Origin: a virus
Virus record (IMG/VR): IMGVR_UViG_3300013118_000772
Reading direction: 5' to 3' (one strand)
DNA: 64,000 bases
Numbering within the stretch: the first letter of the stretch is position 1; each line of letters starts with the position of its first letter. Of the stretch, positions 1,045 through 15,009 are shown piece by piece. Below the pieces are notes generated by a model. It ran no database searches, was not told where the DNA came from, and saw only the letters and a program-made list of their open reading frames with translations. A program made the position numbers and the translations under genes.

Positions 1045-1996
1045 TTTGAATTAAAGTACTTTGAACAGGAAACATATATTTATCTTTTCCATAAAGATAA
1101 TGAGGTTGTCTTTCATCTTTCATACAATGCCTAAATTTAGCCGGATTTAAATACTTTCTTAAAATTTCTACAGCTTCACCAAAAGTATAACAATTATCGC
1201 GCAATCCTATTATAACTATTCTTCTTTCATTCCAGCCAAGATTGCCTTTTGATAAAAGCATTTTTATGCAATCAGGAAGTAATGGAGATAAATCTGCAAA
1301 GTCTTCACTGTCCAGGTTTATACTTGATCTATCAAATTCTATATTATTCATTATATCAGTATCAAACTCTTCTATGTTCCAATATTTATGACCAAATCCA
1401 TTGTAAAAAAATCTTTGATATTTAGCTAATTCAAATATGGTTTTTTCACCTAAATTAATTATTTTTTCATCTAAAGGTATACAAAATCTTTTAGCAGTAG
1501 GTTTGTGATTATAAGTATTATCCACACGATGAATTCTAGCAATATCACCTTTAACTTGTTTATCCATTTTAATATCTAATTCTTCACAAAGCCAAGTCTG
1601 AGCATTAAATACACATTGTTTTTTATTGTTTATAAAAGAATTTGGTTCAGTAGCTATAATTATATCATAAGCGGAACCAGTACATCTTGGAAAATGTAAA
1701 ATTTTACGTTCCTTACACCAATTGTGAATTTTTATTAAATTTTCATAGGCATCTACATGATACGTGTAACCATTATCAACTATCTTTTTATCGAGATCAA
1801 AGTAAATCCGATCAATTATAGCTGTTTCATAAATTGGAAATGGATATGGTTCTCTAAATTTGGAAAAGTTATAAACATTAGTATATATGCTAGAAGTAGG
1901 AGAGTTGGCATTAACGAAGTTAATAAACTGTCTAGTATTTCGTACTACTGTTCTTTTTGGGTTACATATTTCACGAGGAAACCTTAAATTATACAT
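914..1996 (-). CDS. Archaeo-eukaryotic primase (AEP/PriS-like primase-polymerase) with C-terminal Cys cluster
   Basis: AEP motif I IYFDLD, motif III-like ARIHRVDNTYNHK, C-terminal CEKACYGC zinc-finger-like cluster; sits beside RFC and polB. Confidence 0.5.
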   Translation of the reverse strand: MYNLRFPREICNPKRTVVRNTRQFINFVNANSPTSSIYTNVYNFSKFREPYPFPIYETAIIDRIYFDLDKKIVDNGYTYHVDAYENLIKIHNWCKERKILHFPRCTGSAYDIIIATEPNSFINNKKQCVFNAQTWLCEELDIKMDKQVKGDIARIHRVDNTYNHKPTAKRFCIPLDEKIINLGEKTIFELAKYQRFFYNGFGHKYWNIEEFDTDIMNNIEFDRSSINLDSEDFADLSPLLPDCIKMLLSKGNLGWNERRIVIIGLRDNCYTFGEAVEILRKYLNPAKFRHCMKDERQPHYLYGKDKYMFPVQSTLIQNGLCPFKENEYCEKACYGCLLYKRNKGEKNGNFSRKISSTKSR

Positions 1997-2142
1997 AGTT
2001 TATTTACCTCTATTAGCTTTTTAGATCTATTTATAATATCTTTTTTAATAGCTTCTGCTAGTTCTTTATTTCTTCTAATTTTAATATCTTGCATAGCTTT
2101 TAAGCTAAAATAAACCCCTGTTGGACAAGCACATCTTATCAT

Positions 2143-2232
2143 TATTCACATCTTCCATATCCACAAATTATGCAACTTTTACATCCTTCTCGATGTACTA
2201 ATTGACATCCACAATCCGGGCATTTTTCCATT
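2143..2232 (-). CDS. Small Cys-rich zinc-ribbon peptide (29 aa)
   Basis: Manual translation MEKCPDCGCQLVHREGCKSCIICGYGRCE; below ORF-track size cutoff. Confidence 0.2.
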
Positions 2233-2240
2233 TTAATTTT

Positions 2241-3155
2241 CTATCTTAATACGACATTCATACAATTATCTTTATAATTGCACCATTTGCAGTTTTCAAA
2301 TGAAGCATTAGCTGGCCACATTCCTGTATCTAAACATATTTTAATTTTATTCCTAACTTTGTCAATATCATCTAATAGTTTTTTTACATCTTCTTTTTTT
2401 AATTCAACATGATAAACATAATTATCAAATGGAAAGTATATAGCTCCAAATTTTATTTCTCCTAAGTCAGGTCGATGGATTTCTACTATTGCTTTATACC
2501 ATAATAAATCCTCTTCATAATTTTTACATTTGCTTTTTGTTGGCTTTCCGGTTTTATTATCCACGACAACTAAATTTCCATTTCTAAAGTTTGGAAACTT
2601 ATCAATAGGTGGAGCAAATGAATCCCCTTCAAAACATTTATGTACTCTATCAGGTATTCCAATAAGTTTTGGATTTTCAGTTTTCATTTTCTTTTCGTTT
2701 ATCAAAGGAATAAAATATTCCATTCCAAAACCTGCTTTATGAACAGCTTTCCATCTTTCAATTTCGAATTTAACTACATTTTTTTTATAATCTGTATTAG
2801 GATGATATTTAAGTTTGCTAATGTTCAATAACTCTCCATTGGATTGAGGCTTAATTATATTAAACAAATTTTCTATAAAATCATGAACATCAATTCCAAT
2901 AGCAAAATATGGGTTAAAGGGTTGTTCAATATCATCTATATAGTTAAATTTAAATGCTAAAGGACAATGTTCGAAAAGGTATTTTTTACTTTTACTAATA
3001 TACATTAAATAGTCGTAATTTTTCATATAGTTCACCTTTTCTTTTATCAATTCTCTTTCCACAATATAAACATGAAACAGTCTTTGCTTGTTTAAACCTA
3101 AATGAATGTAGGTAAAATATTTCTTTACAATGATAACATTTAATTTCCTCTCCAA
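2241..3155 (-). CDS. Cas4-like PD-(D/E)XK nuclease with four-Cys cluster
   Basis: N-terminal Cys in YLFEHCP and C-terminal CKWCNYKDNC (C-x2-C-x5-C) as in Cas4/RecB-family exonucleases; acidic motifs IGIDVHD, GIPDRV; start may be internal Met (MKNYDYLMY). Confidence 0.5.
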   Translation of the reverse strand: MERKLNVIIVKKYFTYIHLGLNKQRLFHVYIVERELIKEKVNYMKNYDYLMYISKSKKYLFEHCPLAFKFNYIDDIEQPFNPYFAIGIDVHDFIENLFNIIKPQSNGELLNISKLKYHPNTDYKKNVVKFEIERWKAVHKAGFGMEYFIPLINEKKMKTENPKLIGIPDRVHKCFEGDSFAPPIDKFPNFRNGNLVVVDNKTGKPTKSKCKNYEEDLLWYKAIVEIHRPDLGEIKFGAIYFPFDNYVYHVELKKEDVKKLLDDIDKVRNKIKICLDTGMWPANASFENCKWCNYKDNCMNVVLR

Positions 3156-3169
3156 CCATTTTTATTTAT

Positions 3170-5716
3170 TCAATAATCAAAAAGACTTTGTTGTCCTTTT
3201 AAATCCAAAATCGACCAGCCCAATCCTTCAAAGATTCGCTCCATCTTACTAGTAGTTGCCTCTTTTACATGTTTGTCATAATCTAATATAGATTTTTCTG
3301 GGATATCATCATTGTTTCTAAAAGCTATTACATCTGTTTTTTGCATTCCTGGAACTCCCCTTACATATATTAATAAAAACTTTTCACCAACTTGAATATT
3401 TAGTTTAAGATTTTTATTTGAAAAAATAACTCCTCTGACTGTTGGTATATTTGTTTGATATTCATTTAATGGCTTTTTTAGTGGAGTAGGTAATCCTATT
3501 TCCTCAAAGCTATACTTATCGTTTCGTATATCTTTTTCCACATTTCTGACATATTTAACTATATTTTCTTTTGATTGTTCCTCTTCAATTAGCATTTTAA
3601 AAACACATTTCTGTGTTTTTCTTGCTATTATGGATTGATCAGATCTTACAACTTCAAATCCTACTATCTGCATTTTGCTAATTTCTTTACCTTTATAATA
3701 GGATAAGAGTCCAGCATATCTTTTCTTAGCTTGACCAAAAAATATTCTTTTATATGCTTTTTCAAAATTAATTTTGAAGTAATGCTGTTTACAGTTAAAT
3801 AGATTAGCAAAATCATCATAACTATCTTGTAAAAATTCAGCTATTTTATTTCCTTCTTCTAGTACTGGAATAAGCTCATTTTCCTGATATTTGGCTTTTA
3901 AAAAATTTGAATCTGTGTCCCCGTATAATGTATCATAATTATTTTTACTAGCTATATATCTGTTCCATAACACTGAATTCCTTCCAACAAAAGTAGTCGC
4001 TGCTGCTATATCTGGCATATATAACCTAAATCCATAATACCCTAACGTCCCATAAAATGAATTCATTAAGATTTTAAATGCAAATTGTTTAAATTCTAAT
4101 CTAATATATTCTGGACTATTATAATCATACTTATCTCTTTCTGCTTGTATATTTATTCTTTCATCGAATAAATATTCTAACATTCCTGGTAGGAATCCTT
4201 TTTTATCTTGACTAAAATAAACATTTTTATTTCTTACATGTTTTGATATAGTGGCAGGGAGCTCTATTTTAAAATCTTGTTTATGTAAATCCCAATTTGC
4301 TTTGAAAAATTCATCAAAAGCTGAACTAATTTTATCGTACCATCTATTATCAAATTTCTCCCCGTCCTTTGAAGAAATCATAAAGGTTGAATGATCTAAA
4401 TAAGGAATTTTTAAATGAACTGAATTTTCATTTCTCTTATCTTGCAAGGTTTCTGGACTAGCATTTAATGAAGAAATTATTTTAGGATACAATGAGGTAT
4501 AATCAAATACTACCGAGTTTTTATGTATTCCTTTTTTTGGTTTTAAAACAAATGCTCCGGCAAAACTTTGTTTTCTATGATGTTTTTTAGTAGGATGAAC
4601 AAATTTACCTTTTGTAAAGTGAAGCATAAATGAATCTACTACTCTTGAGTTATTAAACACATCATTAAAAGAACATTTACTTAATCTTCTTGTTTCATCA
4701 AATGTCTGAACAATCTTCTTTTTCTTTTCTATCCTATAAACTAACATTGTATCTTTTTTATTATAGGCAATGAATTTATCTAAATCATCCTGCCAAAGGC
4801 TATGTAAGCTTCCTGCATATTTTATTTTTTTTTCACCTAGTTCATGACTTGCGACATTATCTAATCTATAACTATCTAATTCTCCATATTGCATTTTTCT
4901 ATAAGCTTCTAGCATATCAAAAATAATTCTTCCTTTAACTAATACATCTCCATACTTATTTGTTAAAGCTACATTCATAGGTGATAACCTTCTATAATCC
5001 ATTCCTATACTATTCATTCTGTTAATAATATAGGCCATATCAAAATCTTTAACGTTCCACCCACTAAACATATCACAATCTGTTTTCTGGACGTATTTTA
5101 TAAATGATATTAACATATCTCGTTCATTATCAAAAAATAAAGTGAAATCTTTATACTTATAATCTTCTTCATTAACAGTTTTAAAACTAACTGTACCATT
5201 ATTAACAGTTTTCCTTTGAAGGTCTTGTCTCCAGACAAAAGTAATACATTTCTTATCCATATTATTAAAACATGTAATAGCATTTATTGGATCACTTGCA
5301 TGTTCTATATCTGGAAATCTATTATTGGAAGCAACTTCAATATCAAGATAGGTAACAGAGAGAGGGACTCCTTTTAAATCATTATATTTATCTATTATAT
5401 ATCTGGTAGGATATAAAACATCTGCCTCAAAACTTTCATCTACTTTTTCCCTTAATTCTTTAACATAGGCAGGAATTTTTGTAATAACTTTTACTACATT
5501 CCTTCCTTTTATATCTTTATATTTTACTTCTTCTATTTTTAATACTCTTTTATCCTTTCTTAATTTTTCAACTTCGTTTTTTAAAATATAAAAATATGGC
5601 TTAAAATCATTATCTCTTATTATTCTTCTTTCACCTTTTTCGTTTCTACCAAATATTACTATGGTAGGAACTTCATTAGTTACTTCATACTCTACTTGTA
5701 TAGGAGTTACAGCAAT
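3170..5716 (-). CDS. polB: Family B DNA polymerase with 3-5 exonuclease domain
   Basis: Exo I LDIEV (in the upstream extension), Exo II NVKDFDMAY, Exo III YNKKD, motif A DYTSLYPKII, motif B KILMNSFYG, motif C YGDTDS. The ORF track starts at Met 5260, but the frame continues 152 codons upstream with clear archaeal PolB N-terminal similarity (FKPYFYIL). Proposed start is ATT at 5714-5716 behind SD AGGTGA. Confidence 0.85.
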   Translation of the reverse strand: MAVTPIQVEYEVTNEVPTIVIFGRNEKGERRIIRDNDFKPYFYILKNEVEKLRKDKRVLKIEEVKYKDIKGRNVVKVITKIPAYVKELREKVDESFEADVLYPTRYIIDKYNDLKGVPLSVTYLDIEVASNNRFPDIEHASDPINAITCFNNMDKKCITFVWRQDLQRKTVNNGTVSFKTVNEEDYKYKDFTLFFDNERDMLISFIKYVQKTDCDMFSGWNVKDFDMAYIINRMNSIGMDYRRLSPMNVALTNKYGDVLVKGRIIFDMLEAYRKMQYGELDSYRLDNVASHELGEKKIKYAGSLHSLWQDDLDKFIAYNKKDTMLVYRIEKKKKIVQTFDETRRLSKCSFNDVFNNSRVVDSFMLHFTKGKFVHPTKKHHRKQSFAGAFVLKPKKGIHKNSVVFDYTSLYPKIISSLNASPETLQDKRNENSVHLKIPYLDHSTFMISSKDGEKFDNRWYDKISSAFDEFFKANWDLHKQDFKIELPATISKHVRNKNVYFSQDKKGFLPGMLEYLFDERINIQAERDKYDYNSPEYIRLEFKQFAFKILMNSFYGTLGYYGFRLYMPDIAAATTFVGRNSVLWNRYIASKNNYDTLYGDTDSNFLKAKYQENELIPVLEEGNKIAEFLQDSYDDFANLFNCKQHYFKINFEKAYKRIFFGQAKKRYAGLLSYYKGKEISKMQIVGFEVVRSDQSIIARKTQKCVFKMLIEEEQSKENIVKYVRNVEKDIRNDKYSFEEIGLPTPLKKPLNEYQTNIPTVRGVIFSNKNLKLNIQVGEKFLLIYVRGVPGMQKTDVIAFRNNDDIPEKSILDYDKHVKEATTSKMERIFEGLGWSILDLKGQQSLFDY

Positions 5717-5835
5717 TTTAGCTCACCTTCTATATTTTTTAGCATTGATCCACAGAAAGGACATTGGACATAATTATCTTTTACATCAAATCTTAATGGC
5801 TTTTTGCATTTTGGACAATTTCTTTTTACATACAT
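5707..5835 (-). CDS. Zinc-ribbon peptide (42 aa) between dpdA-like gene and polB
   Basis: Manual translation MYVKRNCPKCKKPLRFDVKDNYVQCPFCGSMLKNIEGELKLL; CPKC...CPFC; SD AGGTGA 5 nt upstream of ATG; 3' end overlaps polB N-terminal frame. Confidence 0.4.
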   Translation of the reverse strand: MYVKRNCPKCKKPLRFDVKDNYVQCPFCGSMLKNIEGELKLL

Positions 5836-5844
5836 TTAAATCAC

Positions 5845-7005
5845 CTAATAATCTAATAATCCTGCTGTATTGACTTTACCATTATCTTTTGAAAAATGAG
5901 ATTGAAATTTAACACATGCTTTATCAAATCCCTTATCTAAACTATAATCTATAAATTCAATAGCTAATTGTACTTCTTTATCAAAAAATTTACGTATGAA
6001 GTTTCTGTAAACTTCTTTATCATCTTTAAGACTATTACAAAGTTTAGTATATTGAATCAATTGATAAAGATTATGCAATGATATTATACCACCAGGTGCA
6101 CTACCTTGTGAGGATAACATATTTATACTATCAATTTGACTACATACAGGACACATGCAAGGTATATTTTTTATATTTGCTTTATTTGCCTGACCAAAGA
6201 ATAATTCCATTTTACCAAAATATAAAGGAAGAAAATATTTTCTTTGCATTGATCCCTGAGCCCAAGCACTGCTATCTGCAGTAATATTATCTACATATCT
6301 TGCTAAGTAAGCTAAAACAGGAATTGTTCTACTTCCACTGACAGCTAAAAAATGAAAGTTATTACTATGACCTTTATTGTACATATACATACCTTGGTAG
6401 GCTAATAACATTGGCTTTGCCTCTGGTTTACATCCAAACGACCAACCTGTTTTTGTCATATTAGGATATTTTGAAGCCATATTATACCAGTCGTCCATTT
6501 TTCTTTTATTAAATCCATAACCTTGAAAAATATTATATAGTTTTAAAGGTCTTTCAGGATTAGATTCTAAATATTTAGTATATAAATCTTCTGCTATTTT
6601 AAAATTTTCATTGCTAATATTCATAGACTTTTTCCATGCTTTTTCATCCGCATCAAAAGGAGGATAATCTAAAGGAAAACCAATATCACAATTTTCAACT
6701 TGCCAATCAAAAACTTCTTTTGGGTCTATTTCTATATCCTGACCTTTCCATTCTTTTAGGCTCATATTTTGAAATCCGCCACTATCCCCCATAAAAATAA
6801 TATCATCTTTTATTTTTAATAACTTTCGTATATTTTCTTTTTTCATACCATAATGAGCGGAAATTAAAATATAAGGATATTTAAATAAAGATTCTTTCTT
6901 CCACCATGTTAGGTCTTTTTCACCATCTTTAAAATGACCAGAAATTCGTTTATTTGTACTACATGCGCCAGGAACTTCTGCTGGAACGAAATTAAAGTTA
7001 CCCAT
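5845..7005 (-). CDS. dpdA: tRNA-guanine transglycosylase family enzyme, DpdA-like candidate DNA 7-deazaguanine transglycosylase
   Basis: TGT catalytic motif MGDSGGFQNMSL and zinc site CMCPVCSQ...H; 386 aa with no PUA domain; embedded in a preQ0 synthesis operon with no queF/queA or tRNA context. Confidence 0.7.
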   Translation of the reverse strand: MGNFNFVPAEVPGACSTNKRISGHFKDGEKDLTWWKKESLFKYPYILISAHYGMKKENIRKLLKIKDDIIFMGDSGGFQNMSLKEWKGQDIEIDPKEVFDWQVENCDIGFPLDYPPFDADEKAWKKSMNISNENFKIAEDLYTKYLESNPERPLKLYNIFQGYGFNKRKMDDWYNMASKYPNMTKTGWSFGCKPEAKPMLLAYQGMYMYNKGHSNNFHFLAVSGSRTIPVLAYLARYVDNITADSSAWAQGSMQRKYFLPLYFGKMELFFGQANKANIKNIPCMCPVCSQIDSINMLSSQGSAPGGIISLHNLYQLIQYTKLCNSLKDDKEVYRNFIRKFFDKEVQLAIEFIDYSLDKGFDKACVKFQSHFSKDNGKVNTAGLLDY

Positions 7006-7006
7006 T

Positions 7007-8353
7007 CTATTTCAACTCCTTTCTTATTGCATAAAGTTCATTTTCAAAAAATTCAAATATATCATCAGGAAGTATTATTACATGGTCGTCGTCTATTTGT
7101 ATGTCAAATATCTCTTGATGCCATACAGGGTCAATCCTTCCTAATGTTTGGTACTTATTTGAATATACATAAGCAAGTGTTTCTGCTTCCTTTTTTCCAT
7201 CTTCTGAATTAAAAATAGCATCTAAGTCATCTGTATTAAGTATTTCCCTATGACTACTTAATCCAATTCTTTCTGGGTCTTCTTTTAATCCTTCTAGCAT
7301 AAAAGCTATTCTTTGGCATTTGTCACATTCATCACAAGGAAGCCACATTCCGTTTTTACTTTTCTTTGGAGTAAAACAACTCATTTGATATTGATATAGA
7401 TTAAATATATCATTTCGTATGAATATCTTTTGAATTGCTGATTCTGATAAATTATACACTAATGAAAATACTTGCATATTAGTACCGATTTCTTTAAGAT
7501 AATGACTTATCTTCCTTTCAAAATGGGTTGATTGATCAAAATTATGACCAAGTATTTCATGACCTTTAAATTCAAATGGAACAGTACAATCAAATTCATT
7601 TCCAAAAACTAGATTTCTAATTCCATTAATATTGCAATAAGCCAATTCAATAAAAGCTAGAATAGGTAAATATAAATTATTCTTACCCCATTTAGGTGCA
7701 ATGAAATCAAAAATTTCAAATATATTGGTTTGTATTTTATCTGACCAGGGAATTGCTTTATACATCATTTCACTTGGATCAAATCGATTATCATCAATAA
7801 ATAGAGGATAAGTTCTATAATTCAACTTTTGTAAAGTAGTAAAAGTCATTGTACTTTCTTTACCTCCACTCATGCTAATAGCATATTTATCTTCTTTATT
7901 TAGCTTATATTTAATGGGATCTAATAAAGGAAATTTTTCATATCCTTCCAAGTTAATATCTTTAAATTCTTTGAATTTATTTGTGAATGTAGTTCTCATT
8001 TGGAAATCTAGATCCAAAAGAAATGAATGATCTAATGAATTTAATTTAAATAGATGTCCTTTACTTAATGATTCCCAATTAGTTAAACATTCATTTTTAG
8101 TAAATAAACCTATATTTAATAATTGAACGTGAACTGACATAGCTAATAATTTTAGACTAATCTTACTATTTTCTAAATTACAATATTTTGGAAAGTTAAT
8201 ATAAATTGGTATAATAATAGAATCATTGTTGTACTGTAACATATATTTACAAGTAAATATATTTTTCATAATTTTTAAATCAAATAATGTTACTCTATTA
8301 AATTTAAAATTAGGATTTTCTTCTATATGTTTAATTAATTCTTTTTTATTCAT
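7007..8353 (-). CDS. QueC-family PP-loop ATPase paralog with about 150-aa N-terminal domain of unknown function
   Basis: Variant PP-loop ISMSGGKEST and QueC-like C-terminal zinc cluster C-x13-CDECDKC; start ATG overlaps queC stop (ATGA). Confidence 0.6.
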   Translation of the reverse strand: MNKKELIKHIEENPNFKFNRVTLFDLKIMKNIFTCKYMLQYNNDSIIIPIYINFPKYCNLENSKISLKLLAMSVHVQLLNIGLFTKNECLTNWESLSKGHLFKLNSLDHSFLLDLDFQMRTTFTNKFKEFKDINLEGYEKFPLLDPIKYKLNKEDKYAISMSGGKESTMTFTTLQKLNYRTYPLFIDDNRFDPSEMMYKAIPWSDKIQTNIFEIFDFIAPKWGKNNLYLPILAFIELAYCNINGIRNLVFGNEFDCTVPFEFKGHEILGHNFDQSTHFERKISHYLKEIGTNMQVFSLVYNLSESAIQKIFIRNDIFNLYQYQMSCFTPKKSKNGMWLPCDECDKCQRIAFMLEGLKEDPERIGLSSHREILNTDDLDAIFNSEDGKKEAETLAYVYSNKYQTLGRIDPVWHQEIFDIQIDDDHVIILPDDIFEFFENELYAIRKELK

Positions 8354-9078
8354 TTAGTTAACCTCTTTGCCCTTCTAGCTAATGCAGCTAAAAAATCTTC
8401 TCTTTCATCTTTTCTTGACATTAATTTTTTATTTGCTTCCTCAGTTAGATTTTCAAATGGATCTTTTTCAAATATTTCATGATAGCTTATATTATTTAAC
8501 TCCAAAGCTACTGCTTTTCTTATACATGCTCTACAAACACCACATTCATGTATTTTGCCACTATAACAACTTCTAGCAAAATGTTTTAGATGTGAAACAA
8601 TGCCACCATTAGCTATATATTGCTTAACTATTTGTGCTTTAGTCAAGTGTTTAAATGGCATCTTAATACTAAAAGGGTAATTTTTTTCAAATACTTTATG
8701 TTTATCTATGGCAAAATAATTTAACATTCCTTCTACTTGTGCTTTGAAAATAAAATCCTTATCTTTTGTGCTATCTCCAGCAGTAAAACCCATATAAATT
8801 TCATTTCCATAATTAGCTGCAATTAAAGTCATAATAGAATTTCTATGAGGTATTATTTTATTTTCCATTTCCCATTCTACTAAAGGTAGTTTAAGTATTC
8901 TAACTTTATCTTTTATTTCTTCTGGCATAGCACTTAAATTTTCAAGTTCAATTTTATTGTCTTCTGTTTCTAAATCAAAAAAGATAATTTCATCATATAT
9001 ATCATTAAACAATAAACACCAGCTGTCTAGTCCACCAGAAAATAATAATATCTTTTTAACTTTTAAACTGTCCTGCAT
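8350..9078 (-). CDS. queC: 7-cyano-7-deazaguanine synthase
   Basis: PP-loop LFSGGLDS, zinc motif CYSGKIHECGVCRAC (C-x7-C-x2-C-x2-C), 242 aa. Confidence 0.85.
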   Translation of the reverse strand: MQDSLKVKKILLFSGGLDSWCLLFNDIYDEIIFFDLETEDNKIELENLSAMPEEIKDKVRILKLPLVEWEMENKIIPHRNSIMTLIAANYGNEIYMGFTAGDSTKDKDFIFKAQVEGMLNYFAIDKHKVFEKNYPFSIKMPFKHLTKAQIVKQYIANGGIVSHLKHFARSCYSGKIHECGVCRACIRKAVALELNNISYHEIFEKDPFENLTEEANKKLMSRKDEREDFLAALARRAKRLTK

Positions 9079-9431
9079 TTTATCTTTCCTCCTGAAAGTT
9101 CTCTTATTCCAAAATTTATTTCTTTATCATTATCTATATATTCGTCTATATGATATATTTCACAAAATGCTTTTTTGAATTGAACTACATAAGTATTATG
9201 CCACATCTTTAAAGGATTGTAAATTATCTTTATTTTGTCTGGATTCATTCCAAATCTTTTCAACGTTTTAAGAGTAATTTTTTTATCTTTATAATTTCTA
9301 GCTGTTATAATTATTTTAATATCTTCTATATTTACCTTTGGATTTAACCTATTAAATCTCTTTTTTAACCAATGATTTTTAAATTTAGATATAATTATAG
9401 TCCCATCCAAATCATAAGCTATTTTTTTCAT
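9063..9431 (-). CDS. Small HAD-superfamily phosphatase (possible nucleotidase)
   Basis: HAD motif I AYDLDGTI (DxDGT) at N-terminus; 122 aa. Confidence 0.5.
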   Translation of the reverse strand: MKKIAYDLDGTIIISKFKNHWLKKRFNRLNPKVNIEDIKIIITARNYKDKKITLKTLKRFGMNPDKIKIIYNPLKMWHNTYVVQFKKAFCEIYHIDEYIDNDKEINFGIRELSGGKIKCRTV

Positions 9432-9805
9432 CTTAATCCTTTTTCTAATAAAAAATTTATTATATCATCCAAACCTTCGAAAATTATACTTGAATAATTT
9501 ATTAACCATGGACTTCTCCATTCATCATGAACAAAAACATAAACTTTCTTTCTCAAGCTTTTGGCATAAAACATTTCCATTGCTGTACCCCAACCAGGTT
9601 TTGTTCCGTCAACAATTAAAATATTGGATTGTCTAATATGTTTTCTATCTTTATTAACAATAGCTCTATGTTTACCTTCTTGATATTTATAATCCATTGG
9701 ATTTATTATTTTAAATTTTTTTCTAAGTTTAATTTTAACTCTTCTTCTCCAACTTTCCCTGAAGGGATCACCATCAAGAGTTCCACTGAGATATATTGTT
9801 TTCAT
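9428..9805 (-). CDS. Nucleoside 2-deoxyribosyltransferase / Rcl(DNPH1)-like protein
   Basis: N-terminal IYLSGTL and central LIVDGTKPGWGTAMEMFYA resemble NDT/Rcl family signatures (YLAGP...D-G-T-x-x-E-x-G-x-A); 125 aa. Confidence 0.4.
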   Translation of the reverse strand: MKTIYLSGTLDGDPFRESWRRRVKIKLRKKFKIINPMDYKYQEGKHRAIVNKDRKHIRQSNILIVDGTKPGWGTAMEMFYAKSLRKKVYVFVHDEWRSPWLINYSSIIFEGLDDIINFLLEKGLR

Positions 9806-9874
9806 TAATCCTCACCTACATCTACTGACATAATATTTCCATAATCATCTTCTACAAAGATAATATTTGGGTAG

Positions 9875-10474
9875 TTATCTTCCATTATGAACCCCATTAG
9901 CAAATCTTAAAAATTCCGCTCTTGTTTCTAAATTGTCTTTAAACGCTCCTCTTAGTTCAATTGTGGTCATATATCCCTCTTTTTTAACTCCTCTTATTGA
10001 TTTGCATAAATGTTTTGCTTTTAAAACCAATGCCATGCCATACGGTTGATTATTTTTTCCATTACTCAACTCTTGCCATAAGTAATCTAAAATATCTTTT
10101 GCTAATCGTTCTTGTATTTGTAATCTAGCTGAAAAATAATCTACTACTCTTGCAACTTTACTCAACCCCAATAATTTTCCATTAGAATTTGGTAAATAAG
10201 CAAAATAATAATTCCCTAAAAACCCAATAATATGATGCTCACAAAAGCTATTAAAATTTCCTTCGTCCATAATCATTTGATCATATGTTACACCATCTTT
10301 TCCATTTCTGAATGTAGTTACTTTTGGTAGTTGTTTTGGATCATATCCTCTAAATATTTCTTTCCACATATTAACTACTCTTTTAGGTGTATCTTTTAAA
10401 CCTTCACGATTTGGGTCTTCGCCTATAAACTCTAACATGCTTCTAACAATCCACCTCATATTATCTTCATCCAT
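9875..10474 (-). CDS. folE: GTP cyclohydrolase I
   Basis: FCEHHIIGFLG and LLGLSKVARVVDYFSARLQIQERL match FolE core; 199 aa. Confidence 0.8.
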   Translation of the reverse strand: MDEDNMRWIVRSMLEFIGEDPNREGLKDTPKRVVNMWKEIFRGYDPKQLPKVTTFRNGKDGVTYDQMIMDEGNFNSFCEHHIIGFLGNYYFAYLPNSNGKLLGLSKVARVVDYFSARLQIQERLAKDILDYLWQELSNGKNNQPYGMALVLKAKHLCKSIRGVKKEGYMTTIELRGAFKDNLETRAEFLRFANGVHNGR

Positions 10475-11092
10475 TTATTTTCCCCTCCGTTTAACTCCCC
10501 ATACATCTACATGTAATCTTGGGCTATATCTTATTTTATGTTTGATACAAAAATCCCAAACTTTTCTTGATATTTTTTTATTTTTTTCTTTATCAGATGT
10601 AGTCAATGGCATTAATAATGATGCTTTTTTTGCCATTTCTTTATTAACTTTATCCAGATCAGATGCTATTTTAATATCATAAAAATATCCAAGCCAAAAA
10701 TTATTATAACTCATTAATTGCATCACTCGATTTAATGTATTTGCATCTTTTGGAGATACGCTAATATAATCAAAATAAGATAATTTATCCCTAGTTAATA
10801 AATCTCCATTAGTTTCTAAATGATGACTAAAACTAGGGAGCTGGCTAATTATTTGTGTCATTTCTATAAACTGTAAAAGTCCCTCACCTCCAGTCCAAAC
10901 TACTGTATCTGTCCCTGATTTTTTTATAGTATTGATAATTTTTTTAATGTTAATTTCATCTCCTTCTTTATGATATTTTGTATCACACCAAGAACATGAT
11001 CTGTTACAGCCGCTTAACCGAATAAAAATAGCTGGAATTCCTACAAATTTTCCTTCGCCTTGTAATGAGACAAACATTTCGTTGATTTTCAT
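10475..11092 (-). CDS. queE: 7-carboxy-7-deazaguanine synthase (radical SAM)
   Basis: N-terminal MFVSLQGEG and radical SAM cluster CNRSCSWCDT; 205 aa. Confidence 0.85.
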   Translation of the reverse strand: MKINEMFVSLQGEGKFVGIPAIFIRLSGCNRSCSWCDTKYHKEGDEINIKKIINTIKKSGTDTVVWTGGEGLLQFIEMTQIISQLPSFSHHLETNGDLLTRDKLSYFDYISVSPKDANTLNRVMQLMSYNNFWLGYFYDIKIASDLDKVNKEMAKKASLLMPLTTSDKEKNKKISRKVWDFCIKHKIRYSPRLHVDVWGVKRRGK

Positions 11093-11328
11093 TTCTTTTT
11101 ACCTTTATCCGGGTTAGTCCTATCCCTGGTTATAGTAGTTATGTGCTTTATAATTATCTTCCTTTTGTCAGTCATAATAACAATATTTAAATGATTAAAG
11201 TTCATGCCTCTTATTTTACCTTTAATAGATATTACTTCTTTCCCTTCAAGATATTTAACTTCACATTCCTTACCAATGAATCTTTTTATCTCATCTAAAT
11301 ACGGGTTAACTTCTTTTCCCTTCATCAT
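11089..11328 (-). CDS. Hypothetical small basic protein, possibly Sm-like fold
   Basis: 79 aa; GKIRGMNFNHLNIVIMTD loosely resembles an Sm1 motif; lies between queE and queD. Confidence 0.25.
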   Translation of the reverse strand: MMKGKEVNPYLDEIKRFIGKECEVKYLEGKEVISIKGKIRGMNFNHLNIVIMTDKRKIIIKHITTITRDRTNPDKGKKK

Positions 11329-11770
11329 TTATATTCACCTCTGCATAACAAGTTGGAGTTTCATATAGTCTTATTCTTGAAAGTTTTAAATGCCTCGGTA
11401 GATTTATATCTAAAACATCAAATATATAATTAACCATATTTTCAGCAGTAACATTTTCTTTTAATCTTAATACTTTCTGATCAATTTTTTCTTCCAAATA
11501 TTTAGCAATATCTTCGTCTACGATAGATAAACTATTTATAATTAATGCATGATCAAATTTATCTACTACATATTCTTTAACTACTTCCTTAAAATCTCCA
11601 AAATCTATTACCATTCCATCATCTGATTCAAAAAATTTAAATTTATCTTGTATCAATCCCATTACTTCTACTTCTAATAAATAACTATGTCCATGAATTG
11701 ACCTACATTTTCCTTTATGGTTAACTAATCTATGTGCACATTCCCATCTAAATATTTTACATATTTTCAT
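11306..11770 (-). CDS. queD: 6-carboxy-5,6,7,8-tetrahydropterin synthase
   Basis: CAHRLVNHKGKCRSIHGHSY (Cx-HGH zinc motif); ORF-track start at 11869 is probably an over-extension; likely start MKICKIFRWECAHR. Confidence 0.8.
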   Translation of the reverse strand: MKICKIFRWECAHRLVNHKGKCRSIHGHSYLLEVEVMGLIQDKFKFFESDDGMVIDFGDFKEVVKEYVVDKFDHALIINSLSIVDEDIAKYLEEKIDQKVLRLKENVTAENMVNYIFDVLDINLPRHLKLSRIRLYETPTCYAEVNINDEGKRS

Positions 11771-11975
11771 TTTTATCCCTCTTATAATGTTCTGAAAAAA
11801 TTGCTTTATGATGAGCTTTTGAATGTTTATTGCATTCATTACATTGATATTTCCAATGATAATTATCAATACAATCTTGTCTTAATGTAAGAAATGTTTT
11901 TTTATTTTGACAATCATCACATCTGCCAAATAATCTAATTCCTAATAAATGTAATGTAACCATTTTATTCATCAA
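11757..11975 (-). CDS. Zinc-finger protein (72 aa)
   Basis: CDDCQNKK...CNECNKH Cys pairs; overlaps only the doubtful 5' extension of queD. Confidence 0.3.
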   Translation of the reverse strand: MMNKMVTLHLLGIRLFGRCDDCQNKKTFLTLRQDCIDNYHWKYQCNECNKHSKAHHKAIFSEHYKRDKNENM

Positions 11976-12792
11976 CTACTCCGGTAACCATATATCTTAC
12001 TGATATATCTTGTTCCTCTTTTAATACCCATAACGCGCTATTTGGAGCAGTATAAATCTTTACATCTCCTTTTAAAGCGGAGAATATATTTTCAAATCCA
12101 TAAGCATACTTATTGTTTAGTTCTATTGAATCAATTTCTGCTGGTATGATAGACTTAATCATTCCCATATTGGTTTTAAGACTCCCAACTTCTACTTTTA
12201 AAATTTTTTGACCGTTTTTATCTTCTATTGAAAATGGATAATATGAAGATCCTACTACTTTGCTGTCTGCTATTATTTCCATAAAATCTTCTGCTTTAAC
12301 ATTTATTGTATTGTCTAATCTTGTACTTTCCTTTCCTTCCTGTATAGCAACTAAGCTTTTCCCATTATCTTTAAATTGCCAAATTTTATTCAATAATTCA
12401 GCTACTTTATAAGTTTCTATATTATCCTTTGCAACTGTTATTATTTTAACTAACTTAGGTGGATCATTTCTTTGTATTCTTATAATAGCATCATTTTGAT
12501 AAATCAACACCTTATCCTTTGGCTTAAAACGAGATAGATATTTCATAAAACTTTCAATATCTCCAATTGTAATAGTTCCTGGTTCTAAAACTGTAGCATT
12601 CATTCTAACATTTACAAATAATTTATTAGTTTCGTCAATTGCATTAGTTTCTATATAATTATTTAAAAGATTAATTACACATTCTTTAACTACATTTGAT
12701 GATACTTTTCCTTCTTCTGTCTCTCCTCTACATGCTACTAAATCTATGAATTTATTAAATTTTGAAATTTCTATCTCTATCTTTGCCATCAT
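11965..12792 (-). CDS. Possible sliding clamp (PCNA-like), weak
   Basis: 275 aa, size and two-half architecture compatible with PCNA, C-terminal ALWVLKEEQDISVRYMVTG resembles PCNA C-terminal strand; next to other replisome genes; no strong motif. Confidence 0.3.
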   Translation of the reverse strand: MMAKIEIEISKFNKFIDLVACRGETEEGKVSSNVVKECVINLLNNYIETNAIDETNKLFVNVRMNATVLEPGTITIGDIESFMKYLSRFKPKDKVLIYQNDAIIRIQRNDPPKLVKIITVAKDNIETYKVAELLNKIWQFKDNGKSLVAIQEGKESTRLDNTINVKAEDFMEIIADSKVVGSSYYPFSIEDKNGQKILKVEVGSLKTNMGMIKSIIPAEIDSIELNNKYAYGFENIFSALKGDVKIYTAPNSALWVLKEEQDISVRYMVTGVVDE

Positions 12793-12797
12793 TTCAC

Positions 12798-13640
12798 CTA
12801 CTTCTTTATTGGAATATCACCAAGAATTATACTAGGTTTTATTCCTTTTTCTGTTACTAAAATTTTAGTATTATTTTCTAATGATGCTTGTGTCACCCTT
12901 AATTGTTCAAGTTTTTGTGATCTGCCTTTAAATGATTTTTCAATCAAATCAAAAGCTTTTGCCTGACCTTCCGCTTTTAGAATTGAAGCTTGTTTATTCC
13001 CTTCCGCTTTTTTAATTTCAGCTCTTCTCATTCCATCTGCTTCTGTTTCAAGAGCATTTGCTGTATCCAATGCTGCAATCTTCTTTTGTTCTGCTTTAAC
13101 TACTTCATTCATTGCGTTTTGAACATCTTGTGGAGGCTCAATTTTTTGAAGTTCAACTCTTAAAACTTCAACTCCATAAGTTTCTGTTTCTTTATCTAAT
13201 ACTTTTTCTACTTTATTATTTATTTCTGCTCTTTCCTCGTTGGCTTGGGCTAATGTCATTGTTCCTATAACCGATCTCAATGTTGTTCTTGATAAAGAAA
13301 TAAGCTGTTCCTCATAATGATCTACTTGGTATATAGCTTTTTTAATATCATTTATTTTATAATATACTACTGCATCAACTACTGCATTTAATTTATCTTT
13401 TGTAATAACAGTTTGAGGTCTAATATCCACCATATTTTCAGTTATATTAACCATAATACTCTTATCTGCTATTGGTATTACATATTTAAATCCCGAATCT
13501 TCTAGCTTTTTAAATTTACCCCATCTTTCTACTAACATTTTTTCTACAGGTCTGACTATTCTAATTCCACTTACAATAACTGCTACACCAAATCCTCCTA
13601 AAATATATGGAAAAAAACTACTTACCATTCCCATTTTCAT
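12798..13640 (-). CDS. SPFH/band-7 (stomatin/prohibitin-like) membrane protein
   Basis: N-terminal TM helix, SPFH core, Ala/Glu/Lys-rich coiled coil EADGMRRAEIKKAEGNKQASILKAEGQAKA typical of HflC/K-stomatin family. Confidence 0.7.
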   Translation of the reverse strand: MKMGMVSSFFPYILGGFGVAVIVSGIRIVRPVEKMLVERWGKFKKLEDSGFKYVIPIADKSIMVNITENMVDIRPQTVITKDKLNAVVDAVVYYKINDIKKAIYQVDHYEEQLISLSRTTLRSVIGTMTLAQANEERAEINNKVEKVLDKETETYGVEVLRVELQKIEPPQDVQNAMNEVVKAEQKKIAALDTANALETEADGMRRAEIKKAEGNKQASILKAEGQAKAFDLIEKSFKGRSQKLEQLRVTQASLENNTKILVTEKGIKPSIILGDIPIKK

Positions 13641-13679
13641 TCACCTTTTCTTTCTTTTTAATTTTTCTTTTAACTATTT

Positions 13680-13877: not shown

Positions 13878-13886
13878 TCTCTCACC

Positions 13887-15007: not shown

Positions 15008-15009
15008 CT

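What the first reader, a model, noticed from the sequence alone, without database searches (positions are those of the whole stretch)
5707..11975. 7-deazaguanine (preQ0) DNA-hypermodification island embedded in the replisome operon of an archaeal-type element
Seven consecutive co-directional, end-overlapping genes encode the full GTP to preQ0 pathway, a TGT-family base-exchange enzyme and accessory genes.
- FolE is supported by FCEHH, QueD by CxxxHGH, QueE by the CNRSCSWC radical-SAM cluster, and QueC by SGGLDS plus C-x7-C-x2-C-x2-C.
- The TGT-family protein has MGDSGGFQNMSL and CxCxxC...H, is 386 aa, and has no PUA domain.
- There is no queF/queA and no tRNA context. The block sits between a PCNA-like gene and polB and is apparently co-transcribed with them.
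- The parsimonious reading is DpdA-type replacement of guanine in DNA by a 7-deazaguanine derivative, as in some phages and bacterial dpd islands. Here it appears in an archaeo-eukaryotic-type replisome with extra accessory genes (second QueC paralog, HAD, NDT-like, Sm-like), which may define an undescribed variant of the pathway.
Basis: partly seen in the sequence, partly recalled or inferred. Interest (0 to 1): 0.85.

Follow-up and report, generated by a model that had tools for sequence, protein, structure and literature searches.

The report
Viral 7-deazaguanine DNA-modification gene cassette
A virus-like element from a marine metagenome carries, next to its DNA polymerase gene, genes that most likely replace guanine in its own DNA with a 7-deazaguanine base; this anti-restriction strategy is already known, but the base-swapping enzyme and the last biosynthetic enzymes here are unusual versions.

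Summary
The cassette holds 9 enzyme-sized genes plus 2 small zinc-ribbon ORFs, not seven, and the largest gap between them is 69 nt.

FolE, QueD and QueE are solid, so 7-carboxy-7-deazaguanine (CDG) synthesis is well supported.

The 386-aa TGT-family protein models confidently as a TGT barrel. It keeps both catalytic aspartates and the Zn site and has no PUA domain. It belongs to a large virus-borne clade that sits next to PolB or clamp-loader genes and, in most loci, next to deazaguanine synthesis genes. It is not DpdA1, DpdA3 or DpdA4. It is only remotely related to DpdA2 and is closer to archaeosine TGT.

The "QueC" is non-canonical: it lacks two motifs shown to be essential in E. coli QueC. 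The "second QueC" is a rare PP-loop ATPase outside the QueC family, with weak MurL and TtuA similarity. dPreQ0 as the end product is therefore not secured.

Placement beside the polymerase gene is normal for such cassettes (phages 9g and CP220); in HVTV-1 the cluster lies a few kb away in the same replication module.

Verdict: a new variant of a known kind, of moderate interest.

The parts
5845..7005 (-). TGT-superfamily guanine transglycosylase, DpdA-like (386 aa), the presumed base-exchange enzyme
   Evidence: PF01702 scores 28.8 bits (GA 26.3) and TIGR00432 (arcTGT) 39.8 bits, far below its cut-off of 350. The AF2 model has pLDDT 84.7 and pTM 0.87. Foldseek's best PDB matches are arcTGT 1j2b/1iq8 (E about 6e-11) and bacterial TGT (TM about 0.63). 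D74, D113, D244, C283, C285, C288 and H311 are invariant in 14 homologues and align with the arcTGT catalytic and Zn residues.
7007..8353 (-). PP-loop ATP pyrophosphatase of a rare uncharacterised family ('PP448'): SGGKES loop plus C-x13-C-x2-C-x2-C
   Evidence: No Pfam hit. NCBIfam MurL 2e-7 and TtuA 0.004. Only 152 relatives among 1.84 billion representatives. The family profile's best PDB matches are TtuA 3e-9 and MnmA; QueC reaches only 0.04. It sits between the QueC-like gene and TGT in L001, L007 and L105, directly in L001 and L007 and with a 224-aa ORF between QueC-like and PP448 in L105. The AF2 model is poor (pLDDT 58).
8350..9078 (-). Non-canonical QueC-like PP-loop enzyme (242 aa, 'TKDK type')
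   Evidence: PF06508 3e-16. TIGR00364 scores 44 bits against a cut-off of 150. SGGLDS, IPHRN and the Zn cysteines are kept, but YxQxHxxE is replaced by LETEDNKIE and YPDC by TKDK. The closest phage homologues are in Phage NCTB, Bacteroides phage BS162P1 and gut phage contigs.
9063..9431 (-). Small HAD-like putative phosphatase (122 aa)
   Evidence: No significant HMM or PDB hit. DxDGT, T43, a lysine and D100 are conserved with the single homologue, in L007, which occupies the same position upstream of QueC-like-PP448-TGT.
9428..9805 (-). Nucleoside 2-deoxyribosyltransferase-family protein (125 aa)
   Evidence: PF05014 2e-9, above the gathering score. GTAMEM aligns with the GTAFEL catalytic-Glu motif of solved NDTs. 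A homologue is present in L001 only.
9875..10474 (-). GTP cyclohydrolase I (FolE)
   Evidence: PF01227 2e-50; NF006826 175 bits, above its cut-off of 162.
10475..11092 (-). 7-carboxy-7-deazaguanine synthase (QueE, radical SAM)
   Evidence: PHROG 2076 (QueE) 1e-34. The five best NCBIfam matches, of 16, are QueE models, all below their cut-offs. CxxxCxxC motif present.
11089..11328 (-).
   Evidence: No family hit except a sub-threshold RNase P component 1 match (0.003). No homologue in any related locus.
11306..11770 (-). 6-carboxytetrahydropterin synthase (QueD)
   Evidence: PTPS 4e-30. TIGR03367 scores 84.8 bits against a cut-off of 89.25. The CxxxHGH motif is intact, so it is not the DpdL variant. 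A 154-aa gene is called on the identical contig.
11757..11975 (-). 71/72-aa cysteine-rich small ORF bridging the PCNA-like gene and QueD
   Evidence: Called as a gene on the identical contigs. Only a sub-threshold Zn-ribbon match.
5707..5835 (-). 42-aa Zn-ribbon ORF between TGT and PolB
   Evidence: Zn_Ribbon_TF 4e-5, below its gathering score. Starts 9 nt after the TGT stop codon and ends inside the PolB N-terminal coding region.
3170..5722 (-). Family B DNA polymerase (flanking gene). The coding region extends about 150 codons upstream of the first ATG.
   Evidence: PF00136 3e-47. The in-frame N-terminal part, including the ExoI motif, is colinear with the 849-aa PolB of L001.
11965..12792 (-). 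Candidate sliding clamp (flanking gene), unverified
   Evidence: Only NF002222 at E 0.008 and no PDB hit. A homologue is conserved in L001 in the same position, just upstream of the QueD end of the cassette.

Best explanation
The block is a virus-encoded cassette that modifies the element's own DNA with a 7-deazaguanine base.

Proposed pathway:
1. FolE, QueD and QueE convert GTP to 7-carboxy-7-deazaguanine (CDG). This step follows from strong family matches with intact catalytic motifs.
2. A non-canonical QueC-like PP-loop enzyme uses ATP to activate the 7-carboxyl or amide group. In this sub-lineage a second, rare PP-loop ATPase (PP448) is also present. Together or separately they turn CDG into the base that is finally installed. 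That base could be the amide ADG, the nitrile preQ0, or a further derivative; which one is unresolved. This step is inferred.
3. The 386-aa TGT-family protein exchanges guanine in double-stranded DNA for that base after replication, as DpdA enzymes do. This protects the DNA from host restriction. This step is inferred from the catalytic residues, the missing tRNA-binding domains and gene linkage.

The NDT-like and HAD-like proteins are variable accessories, probably nucleotide-salvage or pool-control enzymes.

The cassette is tightly packed with the clamp-like and PolB genes, which fits expression together with the replisome.
For: Synthesis genes: family assignments with intact motifs.

The TGT-like protein:
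- Confident TGT fold.
- Both aspartates and the CxCxxC...H Zn site are invariant in 14 homologues and align with the arcTGT D95/D249 region.
- No PUA or other extra domain.

Gene linkage of the clade:
- At least 428 relatives in IMG/VR.
- All 30 loci of at least 15 kb carry PolB or a clamp loader within 10 kb, and 25 of the 30 carry at least one of FolE/QueE/QueD/QueC.
- The TGT gene lies immediately upstream of PolB in relatives at 62% (L001), 63% (L105) and 35% identity (L002); in L005 (32%) PolB follows about 3 kb downstream.

Precedent:
- FolE+QueD+QueE+QueC+DpdA gives dPreQ0 in phage DNA and protects it from restriction (PMC6884629).
- Phage 9g has DpdA-clamp-polymerase adjacent, CP220 has QueC next to PolB, and HVTV-1 has the cluster in its replication module.

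Other points:
- Phage NCTB, which was listed with synthesis genes but no DpdA (supplement read), carries both the closest phage TGT homologue and the closest QueC-like type.
- There is no tRNA gene in the window and no QueA/G/H-type queuosine gene was found.
Against: - No chemistry was measured. DNA rather than RNA as the target rests on gene association and on the absence of tRNA-binding domains, and bacterial tRNA TGTs also lack PUA.
- The protein is not a sequence member of any experimentally supported DpdA subfamily. Its nearest characterised relative by sequence is a tRNA enzyme, arcTGT.
- The QueC-like protein lacks residues that are essential in E. coli QueC (PMC13329287), so the last biosynthetic step might fail or differ.
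- PP448 has no assignable substrate. In one close relative it is replaced by an unrelated 163-aa ORF.
- The NDT-like and HAD-like genes would also fit a nucleotide-level route.
Confidence: 0.65

Rival explanations
1. Plain dPreQ0. The 242-aa protein is a working preQ0 synthase despite its divergence. The TGT-like enzyme inserts preQ0, and dPreQ0 is the final modification. PP448, NDT and HAD are irrelevant passengers.
For: The minimal set FolE+QueD+QueE+QueC+DpdA gives dPreQ0 in phages (PMC6884629). The 242-aa protein passes the Pfam QueC threshold and keeps SGGxDS, xPxRN, K, C-Y and the Zn cysteines. Related loci L005, L002 and L085 carry a canonical QueC next to the same TGT clade. No QueF, ArcS or Gat was found.
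Against: Y35 (YxQxHxxE) and Y131 (YPDC) are essential for preQ0 formation in E. coli (PMC13329287), and both are replaced here; the YPDC site also has a 2-residue deletion. The protein scores 44 bits against the TIGR00364 cut-off of 150. This QueC type is repeatedly accompanied by a second PP-loop enzyme: PP448 in five loci and another QueC paralogue in L111. That suggests split or additional chemistry.
Confidence: 0.3
2. Pre-replicative route. The deazaguanine base is put on deoxyribose by the NDT-like enzyme, with the HAD-like phosphatase reshaping the dG nucleotide pool. It is then phosphorylated and incorporated by the viral PolB. The TGT-like protein plays a minor or different role.
For: The NDT-family protein has an intact catalytic-Glu motif inside the cassette. 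The HAD-like gene is conserved in the same place in L007. Hutinet et al. left open undetected 2'-deoxyribosyltransferases and a modified-dNTP route for some phages (PMC6884629, discussion). A QueC-like cluster linked to PfkB-NDT fusions exists in Proteobacteria (PMC13329287).
Against: NDT and HAD are each found in only one related locus and are absent from most, so they are not core. No nucleoside or nucleotide kinase was found in the cassette. The TGT-like gene is the universally conserved partner. Current opinion is that all known 7-deazaguanine DNA modifications are post-replicative (PMC10516641).
Confidence: 0.08
3. tRNA-directed function. The TGT-like enzyme and the synthesis genes modify host or viral tRNA in an archaeosine- or queuosine-like way to tune translation during infection.
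For: The closest characterised relative by sequence and fold is archaeosine tRNA-guanine transglycosylase. Bacterial tRNA TGTs also lack PUA.
Against: The arcTGT C-terminal C1/C2/PUA domains are absent (386 aa against 582). There are no tRNA genes in 64 kb. The clade is virus-borne and tied to PolB and clamp-loader genes. It scores far below the tRNA-TGT model cut-offs (39.8 against 350; 28.1 against 47.6). Phage DpdA did not complement tgt (PMC6884629).
Confidence: 0.06

Closest known systems
Viral 7-deazaguanine DNA-modification clusters: DpdA plus FolE/QueD/QueE/QueC. Examples are Enterobacteria phage 9g, Escherichia phage CAjan and Halovirus HVTV-1 (Hutinet 2019, PMC6884629; Cui 2023, PMC10516641).
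   Same: It has the same gene set logic: GTP to CDG enzymes, a QueC-family enzyme and a TGT-superfamily transglycosylase. It has the same placement among replication genes: 9g has QueE-GatQueC-QueD-FolE-DpdA-clamp-Pol, and HVTV-1 has the cluster in the same replication module as PolB and the RFC genes. The window's PolB has its best phage-database hits in HVTV-1 and HCTV-5.
   Different: The transglycosylase is not DpdA1 (hhalign E 0.008), DpdA3 (E 0.0015, probability 17%) or DpdA4/DUF6610 (no similarity). The QueC is non-canonical. There is an extra PP-loop ATPase. There is no QueF, ArcS, Gat-QueC, DpdL, DpdM or DpdN.
DpdA2 (Vibrio phage nt-1, YP_008125322)
   Same: It is the closest of the named viral DpdA subfamilies. 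hhalign gives probability 94.5% and E 8e-8 over the catalytic barrel. Foldseek gives E 2.7e-10 and TM 0.59. Both are flanked by FolE and QueC.
   Different: Identity is about 22% and pairwise BLASTP gives only E 0.024. The alignment stops before the Zn-binding segment, which the window protein keeps in the TGT/arcTGT form. The window family scores better against arcTGT (5.5e-19).
Archaeosine tRNA-guanine transglycosylase (arcTGT/TgtA; PDB 1iq8, 1j2b)
   Same: It is the best sequence and fold match among solved structures. The catalytic Asp pair, the guanine-binding Asp/Gln and the CxCxxC...H Zn site align.
   Different: The C-terminal C1, C2 and PUA tRNA-binding domains are missing. It scores 39.8 bits against the 350-bit family cut-off. 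The context is viral and linked to replication genes.
Uncharacterised TGT-domain proteins of jumbo phages: Phage NCTB BN7874_014, Vibrio phage vB_VcorM_GR7B GR7B_00174, Pseudomonas vB_PpuM phages, Achromobacter phage Motura
   Same: They are the nearest proteins in cultured phages, matching the family HMM at 1e-43 to 1e-50 with 24-27% identity. NCTB also carries the same non-canonical QueC type (36% identity) and was previously listed as lacking a DpdA (supplement read).
   Different: They are about 530 aa with extra N- and C-terminal extensions. They are not adjacent to the synthesis genes. Their hosts are bacteria. No PP448 homologue was found in the stretches of NCTB, GR7B and BS162P1 that were fetched.
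[quoted passage not shown]
   Same: They share the PP-loop ATP pyrophosphatase core (NF041275 2e-7; TtuA 3e-9 by profile). MurL works by ATP to AMP substrate adenylation (PMC5808125).
   Different: The scores are far below family cut-offs (29.9 bits against 700). The context is different. PP448 has a QueC-like four-Cys ribbon and its own N- and C-terminal domains.

Membership tests
TGT superfamily (PF01702) | TIM-barrel TGT fold with an inserted Zn subdomain | tested here: met
   The AF2 model has pLDDT 84.7. Foldseek finds arcTGT and TGT at E 6e-11 to 1e-8 with TM 0.58-0.64. The Pfam score of 28.8 is above the gathering score of 26.3.
TGT superfamily (PF01702) | Catalytic Asp pair and CxCxxC...H zinc site | tested here: met
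   D74 (DSGGFQ), D244 (DSS), and C283/C285/C288/H311 are invariant in 14 homologues and align with the arcTGT residues.
Archaeosine tRNA-guanine transglycosylase (TgtA, TIGR00432) | Family score cut-off and the C-terminal C1/C2/PUA tRNA-binding domains | tested here: not met
   39.8 bits against a cut-off of 350. The protein is 386 aa, and only residues 66-324 match arcTGT residues 86-329 of 582. No PUA hit.
Bacterial/eukaryotic queuine TGT (TIGR00449) | Family score cut-off | tested here: not met
   28.1 bits against a cut-off of 47.6.
DpdA1 (phage 9g type) | Detectable sequence homology to 9g DpdA | tested here: not met
   hhalign probability 4.9%, E 0.008, DSGxF region only. No PHROG DpdA hit. 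DpdA1-like BFVD models score only E about 1e-6 with TM 0.35-0.46.
DpdA2 (Vibrio phage nt-1 type) | Detectable sequence homology to nt-1 DpdA2 | tested here: inconclusive
   hhalign probability 94.5%, E 8e-8 over 202 columns of the barrel, at about 22% identity. BLASTP gives E 0.024. The Zn segment is not aligned. The two are related, but no closer than the window protein is to arcTGT.
DpdA3 (Cellulophaga phage phiST CGPG_00065 type) | Detectable sequence homology to phiST DpdA3 | tested here: not met
   hhalign probability 17%, E 0.0015. The NCTB-type relative against phiST gives BLASTP E 1.1. tblastn with phiST DpdA3 finds none of the window-clade phages.
DpdA4 (DUF6610, HVTV1_69 type, archaeal viruses) | DUF6610 domain or homology to HVTV1_69 | tested here: not met
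   No DUF6610 Pfam hit. hhalign E 0.44 and BLASTP E 0.55. The HCTV-1 homologue gives Foldseek E 0.11.
Bacterial DpdA (dpd island) | Match to the defence-system DpdA model | tested here: not met
   No PADLOC hit at E <= 0.01, although the PADLOC QueC model did match the neighbouring gene. That PADLOC holds a DpdA model is from my own knowledge.
DpdA as a functional class | Exchanges guanine in DNA for a 7-deazaguanine base | not testable with these tools
   Needs mass spectrometry of the DNA or an enzyme assay.
Canonical QueC (preQ0 synthase; PF06508 cluster 1, TIGR00364) | SGGxDS P-loop, xPxRN motif, and the C-Y...CxxCxxC zinc motif | tested here: met
   SGGLDS, IPHRN and SCYSGKIHECGVCRAC are present, with spacing x7 instead of x8.
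Canonical QueC (preQ0 synthase; PF06508 cluster 1, TIGR00364) | YxQxHxxE and YPDC substrate-pocket motifs (Y35 and Y131 essential; PMC13329287) and the equivalog cut-off | tested here: not met
   The window has FDLETEDNKIE and TKDK, with a 2-residue deletion, where HVTV-1, nt-1, L005, L085 and others have YGQ..H..E and Y[PW]DC. TIGR00364 scores 44.3 bits against a cut-off of 150.3.
QueC family, for the 448-aa protein | Match to PF06508 or TIGR00364 | tested here: not met
   No Pfam hit. The family profile against QueC structures gives E 0.04-0.23, while TtuA gives 3e-9. Only the QueC-like domain of 9g Gat-QueC aligns weakly (hhalign 44%, E 2e-4).
GTP cyclohydrolase I (FolE) | Family cut-off | tested here: met
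   NF006826 scores 175.2 bits, above its cut-off of 162. PF01227 2e-50.
QueD (6-carboxytetrahydropterin synthase) | CxxxHGH motif and PTPS fold family | tested here: met
   CRSIHGH is present. PF01242 scores 104.8 bits. TIGR03367 scores 84.8 bits, just under its cut-off of 89.25.
QueE (CDG synthase) | Radical-SAM CxxxCxxC motif and a best match to QueE models | tested here: met
   CNRSCSWC is present. PHROG QueE 1e-34. The five best NCBIfam matches, of 16, are QueE models, though all are below the equivalog cut-offs.
Nucleoside 2-deoxyribosyltransferase family (PF05014) | Gathering score and catalytic Glu | tested here: met
   37.9 bits against a gathering score of 28.8. GTAMEM aligns with GTAFEL of solved NDTs. 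The substrate is unknown.
HAD phosphatase superfamily | Motifs I-IV and an HMM match | tested here: inconclusive
   DxDGT, T43, K and D100 are conserved between the two known homologues, but there is no Pfam, NCBIfam or PDB hit.
Sm/LSm fold (79-aa ORF) | Any profile match | tested here: not met
   Only NF046110 (Rpp29) at E 0.003, scoring 17.7 bits against a cut-off of 90. No homologues.

The most novel reading that the evidence does not exclude
The 'TKDK-type' QueC-like enzyme and its PP-loop partner PP448 do not simply make preQ0. Either they split the two ATP-dependent QueC steps between two proteins, or they make a 7-deazaguanine derivative not yet described in DNA, for example an N-substituted amide or an amidine. 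That base would be installed by an arcTGT-like transglycosylase clade that stands as a fifth viral DpdA-like subfamily, widespread in uncultured viruses (IMG/VR) and possibly in archaeal viruses.
Probability: 0.25. Interest if true: 0.7.

Novelty: new variant of a known kind. Interest (0 to 1): 0.45.

Why it matters
7-deazaguanine DNA modifications are a known viral counter-defence. The catalogue of bases (8 so far) and of DpdA subfamilies (bDpdA and DpdA1-4) is still growing.

This locus and its relatives point to three things:
- A large TGT/DpdA-like clade that none of the three reference DpdAs tested (9g DpdA1, phiST DpdA3, HVTV-1 DpdA4) detects. It includes phages previously listed as having no DpdA.
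- A QueC subtype with a remodelled substrate pocket.
- A rare PP-loop ATPase wedged between QueC and the transglycosylase.

If the chemistry differs from preQ0, it would add a new DNA base or a new enzymatic route. If it does not differ, it shows how far QueC and DpdA can diverge and still work, which would improve annotation of viral metagenomes. It does not open a new category of biology.

Tried and rejected
1. DpdA4 membership was the natural guess for an archaeal-type virus. It was rejected: no similarity to HVTV1_69 and no DUF6610 hit.
2. DpdA3 membership, suggested by the link to Phage NCTB, was rejected. phiST DpdA3 (gp042 = CGPG_00065, identified and the map) is unrelated at BLAST level to NCTB and only marginally related to the window family.
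3. I asked whether the window QueC is the Campylobacter phage 'QueC*' (ADG synthase) type. It is not. CP220 QueC keeps Y..H and FPDC, whereas the window type has a deletion and TKDK. tblastn also finds no Campylobacter phage.
4. I considered QueC-like and PP448 as an obligate pair. This was weakened: a 58%-identical QueC-like gene in a 102.8-kb contig has a 163-aa ORF in PP448's place, and NCTB and BS162P1 show no PP448 homologue near their QueC-like genes.
5. I looked for a substrate-pocket signature in the TGT (GGxVP against GCKP/GVKP) that tracks the QueC type. There is no clean correlation.
6. The structure route for PP448 failed: the AF2 model has pLDDT 58, and Foldseek gave only weak PP-loop matches.
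7. Virion type and host could not be settled. There is no capsid, portal or terminase hit in Pfam or PHROGs, and no tblastn hit for the HerA-type ATPase or a candidate capsid ORF. An archaeal host stays an inference from MAG labels and the PolB affinity to haloarchaeal viruses.
8. Sigma-70 promoter and terminator scans were no better than shuffled sequence.

Full report
**1. What is there**

The window has about 28% G+C. Positions 16-16441 form one minus-strand gene array. In the direction of transcription it reads:
- a 416-aa and a 305-aa protein;
- two small Zn-finger ORFs;
- an SPFH/Band_7 protein;
- a 275-aa candidate clamp;
- the block under study;
- PolB;
- a PD-(D/E)XK nuclease;
- a 360-aa protein;
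- an RFC-like clamp loader.

The block 5707-11975 reads, in transcription order: a 71/72-aa Cys-rich ORF, QueD, a 79-aa ORF, QueE, FolE, an NDT-like gene, a HAD-like gene, a QueC-like gene, a 448-aa PP-loop protein ('PP448'), the TGT-like gene and a 42-aa Zn-ribbon ORF. That is nine enzyme-sized genes and two small ORFs rather than seven. Neighbouring genes overlap by 4-23 nt or abut. The largest gap is 69 nt, and no terminator-like site lies on the coding strand.

The sequence is essentially identical (1-2 mismatches in 18 kb) to contigs of 69-77 kb from three metagenome assemblies: JGI 3300009128, JGI 3300013119 and ENA ERZ23498668.

**2. Synthesis genes**

| Gene | Evidence |
|---|---|
| FolE | PF01227 2e-50; NF006826 above its cut-off |
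| QueD | PTPS 4e-30; CxxxHGH intact, so not the DpdL decarboxylase variant described |
| QueE | radical SAM; PHROG QueE 1e-34 |

These assignments are secure, so synthesis of CDG is well supported.

The next step is not secure. The 242-aa 'QueC' passes the Pfam threshold (3e-16) but scores 44 bits against the 150-bit equivalog cut-off. Libby et al. 2026 (PMC13329287) define the canonical signature as SGGxDS, YxQxHxxE, VPxRN, YPDC, K165 and C(x)8CxxCxxC, and show that Y35A, R99A, Y131A and Y189A abolish function.

I aligned the window protein with QueCs from HVTV-1 (whose DNA carries dPreQ1), nt-1, CP220 and related metagenomic loci. The window protein keeps SGGLDS, IPHRN, the lysine and C-Y...CxxCxxC. 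It has FDLETEDNKIE in place of YxQxHxxE. It has TKDK, with a two-residue deletion, in place of YPDC.

The same 'TKDK type' occurs in L001, L007, L105, L111, Phage NCTB, Bacteroides phage BS162P1 and two gut phage contigs. It is not the Campylobacter phage 'QueC*' type, which keeps FPDC.

**3. PP448**

PP448 has an SMSGGKES PP-loop and a C-x13-C-x2-C-x2-C cluster but matches no Pfam family.
- Its weak matches are MurL (2e-7) and TtuA.
- A profile of 40 relatives matches TtuA (3e-9) and MnmA better than QueC (0.04).
- MurL is an ATP to AMP adenylating enzyme (PMC5808125).
- The family is rare: 152 relatives among 1.84 billion representatives, mostly without Pfam domains.
- The structure model was too poor to use.

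Close homologues lie between the QueC-like gene and the TGT gene in L001, L007 and L105, directly in L001 and L007 and with a 224-aa ORF before PP448 in L105. A more distant homologue follows a QueC fragment in L106.

PP448 is not obligatory for the TKDK-type QueC. A contig of 102.8 kb has a 58%-identical QueC-like gene with a 163-aa ORF in PP448's place. L111 has a different divergent QueC paralogue next to its QueC-like gene.

Related viruses with the same TGT clade but a canonical QueC (L005, L002, L085) have no PP448.

I infer that the terminal chemistry in this sub-lineage differs from, or is divided differently than, the textbook QueC reaction. What the product is cannot be told from sequence.

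**4. The transglycosylase**

The 386-aa protein gives a confident model (pLDDT 84.7, pTM 0.87) with the TGT fold.
- The best solved matches are archaeosine TGT (E about 6e-11) and bacterial TGT (TM about 0.63).
- A profile of 14 homologues matches the arcTGT catalytic domain at 5.5e-19. The DSGGFQ aspartate, the second base-binding Asp, the DS(S/A) nucleophile and CxCxxC...H are aligned and invariant.
- There is no PUA or other extra domain.

Tests against reference DpdAs fetched from annotated genomes:

| Reference | Result |
|---|---|
| DpdA1 (9g) | hhalign E 0.008, probability 5% |
| DpdA3 (phiST gp042 = CGPG_00065) | hhalign E 0.0015, probability 17% |
| DpdA4 (HVTV1_69) | no similarity |
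| DpdA2 (nt-1 YP_008125322) | probability 94.5%, E 8e-8 over the barrel only; BLASTP E 0.024 |

Predicted viral structures give the same order: an unnamed 420-aa viral protein (29% identity, E 8e-28) is closest, then NCTB/GR7B/Motura-type proteins, then nt-1 DpdA2, then DpdA1-like proteins, then DpdA4. No PHROG or PADLOC DpdA model matches.

So the protein works like a DpdA on present evidence, but it is not a member of a named subfamily.

**5. Wider family and linkage**

IMG/VR holds at least 428 relatives.
- Of the 30 fetched loci of at least 15 kb, all have PolB or a clamp loader within 10 kb.
- 25 of the 30 have at least one deazaguanine synthesis gene.
- Four IMG/VR loci and three MAG loci carry all four synthesis genes.

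The TGT gene lies immediately upstream of PolB at 62% (L001), 63% (L105) and 35% identity (L002). In L005 (32%) PolB follows about 3 kb downstream.

Relatives at about 30% identity sit on contigs binned as Nitrosotalea, Nanoarchaeia and Methanotrichaceae, but also 'Bacilli'.

In cultured phages the clade appears as about 530-aa 'TGT domain' or hypothetical proteins of jumbo phages. One of them is Phage NCTB, which Hutinet et al. listed with synthesis genes but no DpdA. NCTB also has the TKDK-type QueC.

**6. Is the setting special?**

No.
- Phage 9g has QueE-x-GatQueC-QueD-FolE-DpdA-clamp-polymerase.
- CP220 has its QueC directly upstream of PolB.
- HVTV-1, an archaeal tailed virus with dPreQ1 DNA, has its cluster in the same replication module as PolB and the RFC genes.
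- All Druskaviridae encode the pathway, and NDT and 5'-nucleotidase genes are common in archaeal tailed viruses (PMC8651126).

The apparent 585-nt gap before polB is coding. It contains a 42-aa Zn-ribbon ORF and the PolB N-terminal exonuclease part. This strengthens the case for co-transcription.

**7. Accessories**

- The NDT-like protein passes the Pfam threshold and keeps the catalytic Glu.
- The HAD-like protein is supported only by motifs shared with its single homologue, in L007, which sits at the same position.
- The 79-aa 'Sm-like' ORF has no support.

These genes vary between relatives:
- L001 has NDT, HNH, DHH and a methyltransferase.
- L007 has a CxxCxxCC (YkgJ-like) protein and HAD.
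- L105 has a 224-aa ORF with a weak precomputed DUF8372 flag; my own Pfam scan gave no hit.

They are therefore not core.

**8. Verdict**

The best explanation is self-modification of the element's DNA with a 7-deazaguanine base by a DpdA-like transglycosylase (confidence about 0.65). CDG synthesis is shown at family level. The terminal base and the DNA target are inferred. dPreQ0 as the specific end product gets about 0.3.

This is a new variant of a known kind. A specialist would want the mass spectrum and the QueC-like/PP448 chemistry, but the existence of such a cassette in an archaeal-type virus is already established knowledge.

Noticed in passing
window 5707-5722 and 5261-5722 (minus strand): The first ~150 codons of PolB, including the ExoI motif YLDIEV, are in frame with the called PolB. 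After the upstream TGA (5725-5723) they have no in-frame ATG, GTG or TTG. A 42-aa Zn-ribbon ORF ends 16 nt inside this region in another frame, next to an A-AAA run (5719-5716). The possibilities are an ATT start, a -1 frameshift that fuses the Zn ribbon to PolB, or a split PolB. The sequence is identical in two other assemblies. In a related 102.8-kb contig the N-terminal part is called as a separate 148-aa gene.
   Followed up: partly
window 16441-16719: The minus-strand and plus-strand gene modules diverge here, and the GC skew changes sign at the same place. This could be a replication origin or simply a coding-strand effect.
   Followed up: no
window 28977-63246 (plus strand): No capsid, portal, tail or classical terminase family was recognised in about 45 kb. 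The recognisable genes are a HerA/DUF87-FtsK-type ATPase (41232-42626), with no tblastn hit in 50,697 phage records, and giant proteins with Laminin_G_3/CarboxypepD_reg (28977-31232) and CBM96/disaggregatase repeats (45482-50344; 1620 aa). The virion type, or even whether this is a virus, is unresolved.
   Followed up: partly
window 12798-13640: An SPFH/Band_7 (stomatin/prohibitin-like) membrane protein is encoded inside the replication module. A 443-aa Band_7/Flot protein sits at the equivalent place in the related 102.8-kb contig.
   Followed up: no
L007 6906-7304; L001 7404-7676: In two relatives a small CxxCxxCC (PF03692, YkgJ-like; E 2.5e-5) protein or a weak DUF3109-like protein lies just upstream of the HAD/QueC-like/PP448/TGT block. 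DpdM, the dPreQ1 methyltransferase of Cui 2023, is a DUF3109/YkgJ-family protein. The window itself has no such gene.
   Followed up: partly
L106 1783-2934: In a 3-kb contig the PP448 homologue (33% identity) is followed by a 383-aa protein carrying a precomputed MurL_N flag, not by a TGT-like gene. No TGT similarity was found by hhalign. This hints that the PP448 family has partners other than the transglycosylase.
   Followed up: partly
L111 742-2099: A PolA-encoding, phage-like contig carries a TKDK-type QueC-like gene directly followed by a second, differently divergent QueC paralogue (it has DYGQ but no YPDC) and FolE. Pairs of PP-loop enzymes therefore recur with this QueC type.
   Followed up: partly
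L085 (contig 102,633 bp); P0173 contig (102,785-103,286 bp): Related contigs have almost the same length as the Druskaviridae genomes HVTV-1 (102,319 bp) and HCTV-5 (102,105 bp), whose PolB is the window PolB's best phage-database hit. This may reflect a marine lineage related to those archaeal tailed viruses. One of the contigs is binned in a 'Nitrosotalea' MAG.
   Followed up: no
L008, L010, L042 and many other IMG/VR loci: Distant TGT-clade members (24-27% identity) sit between PolB and a clamp loader on viral contigs of up to 173 kb, often with FolE and QueE but with no detectable QueC or QueD. This may be a CDG-level or otherwise different modification pathway in large uncultured viruses (environment not checked).
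   Followed up: no
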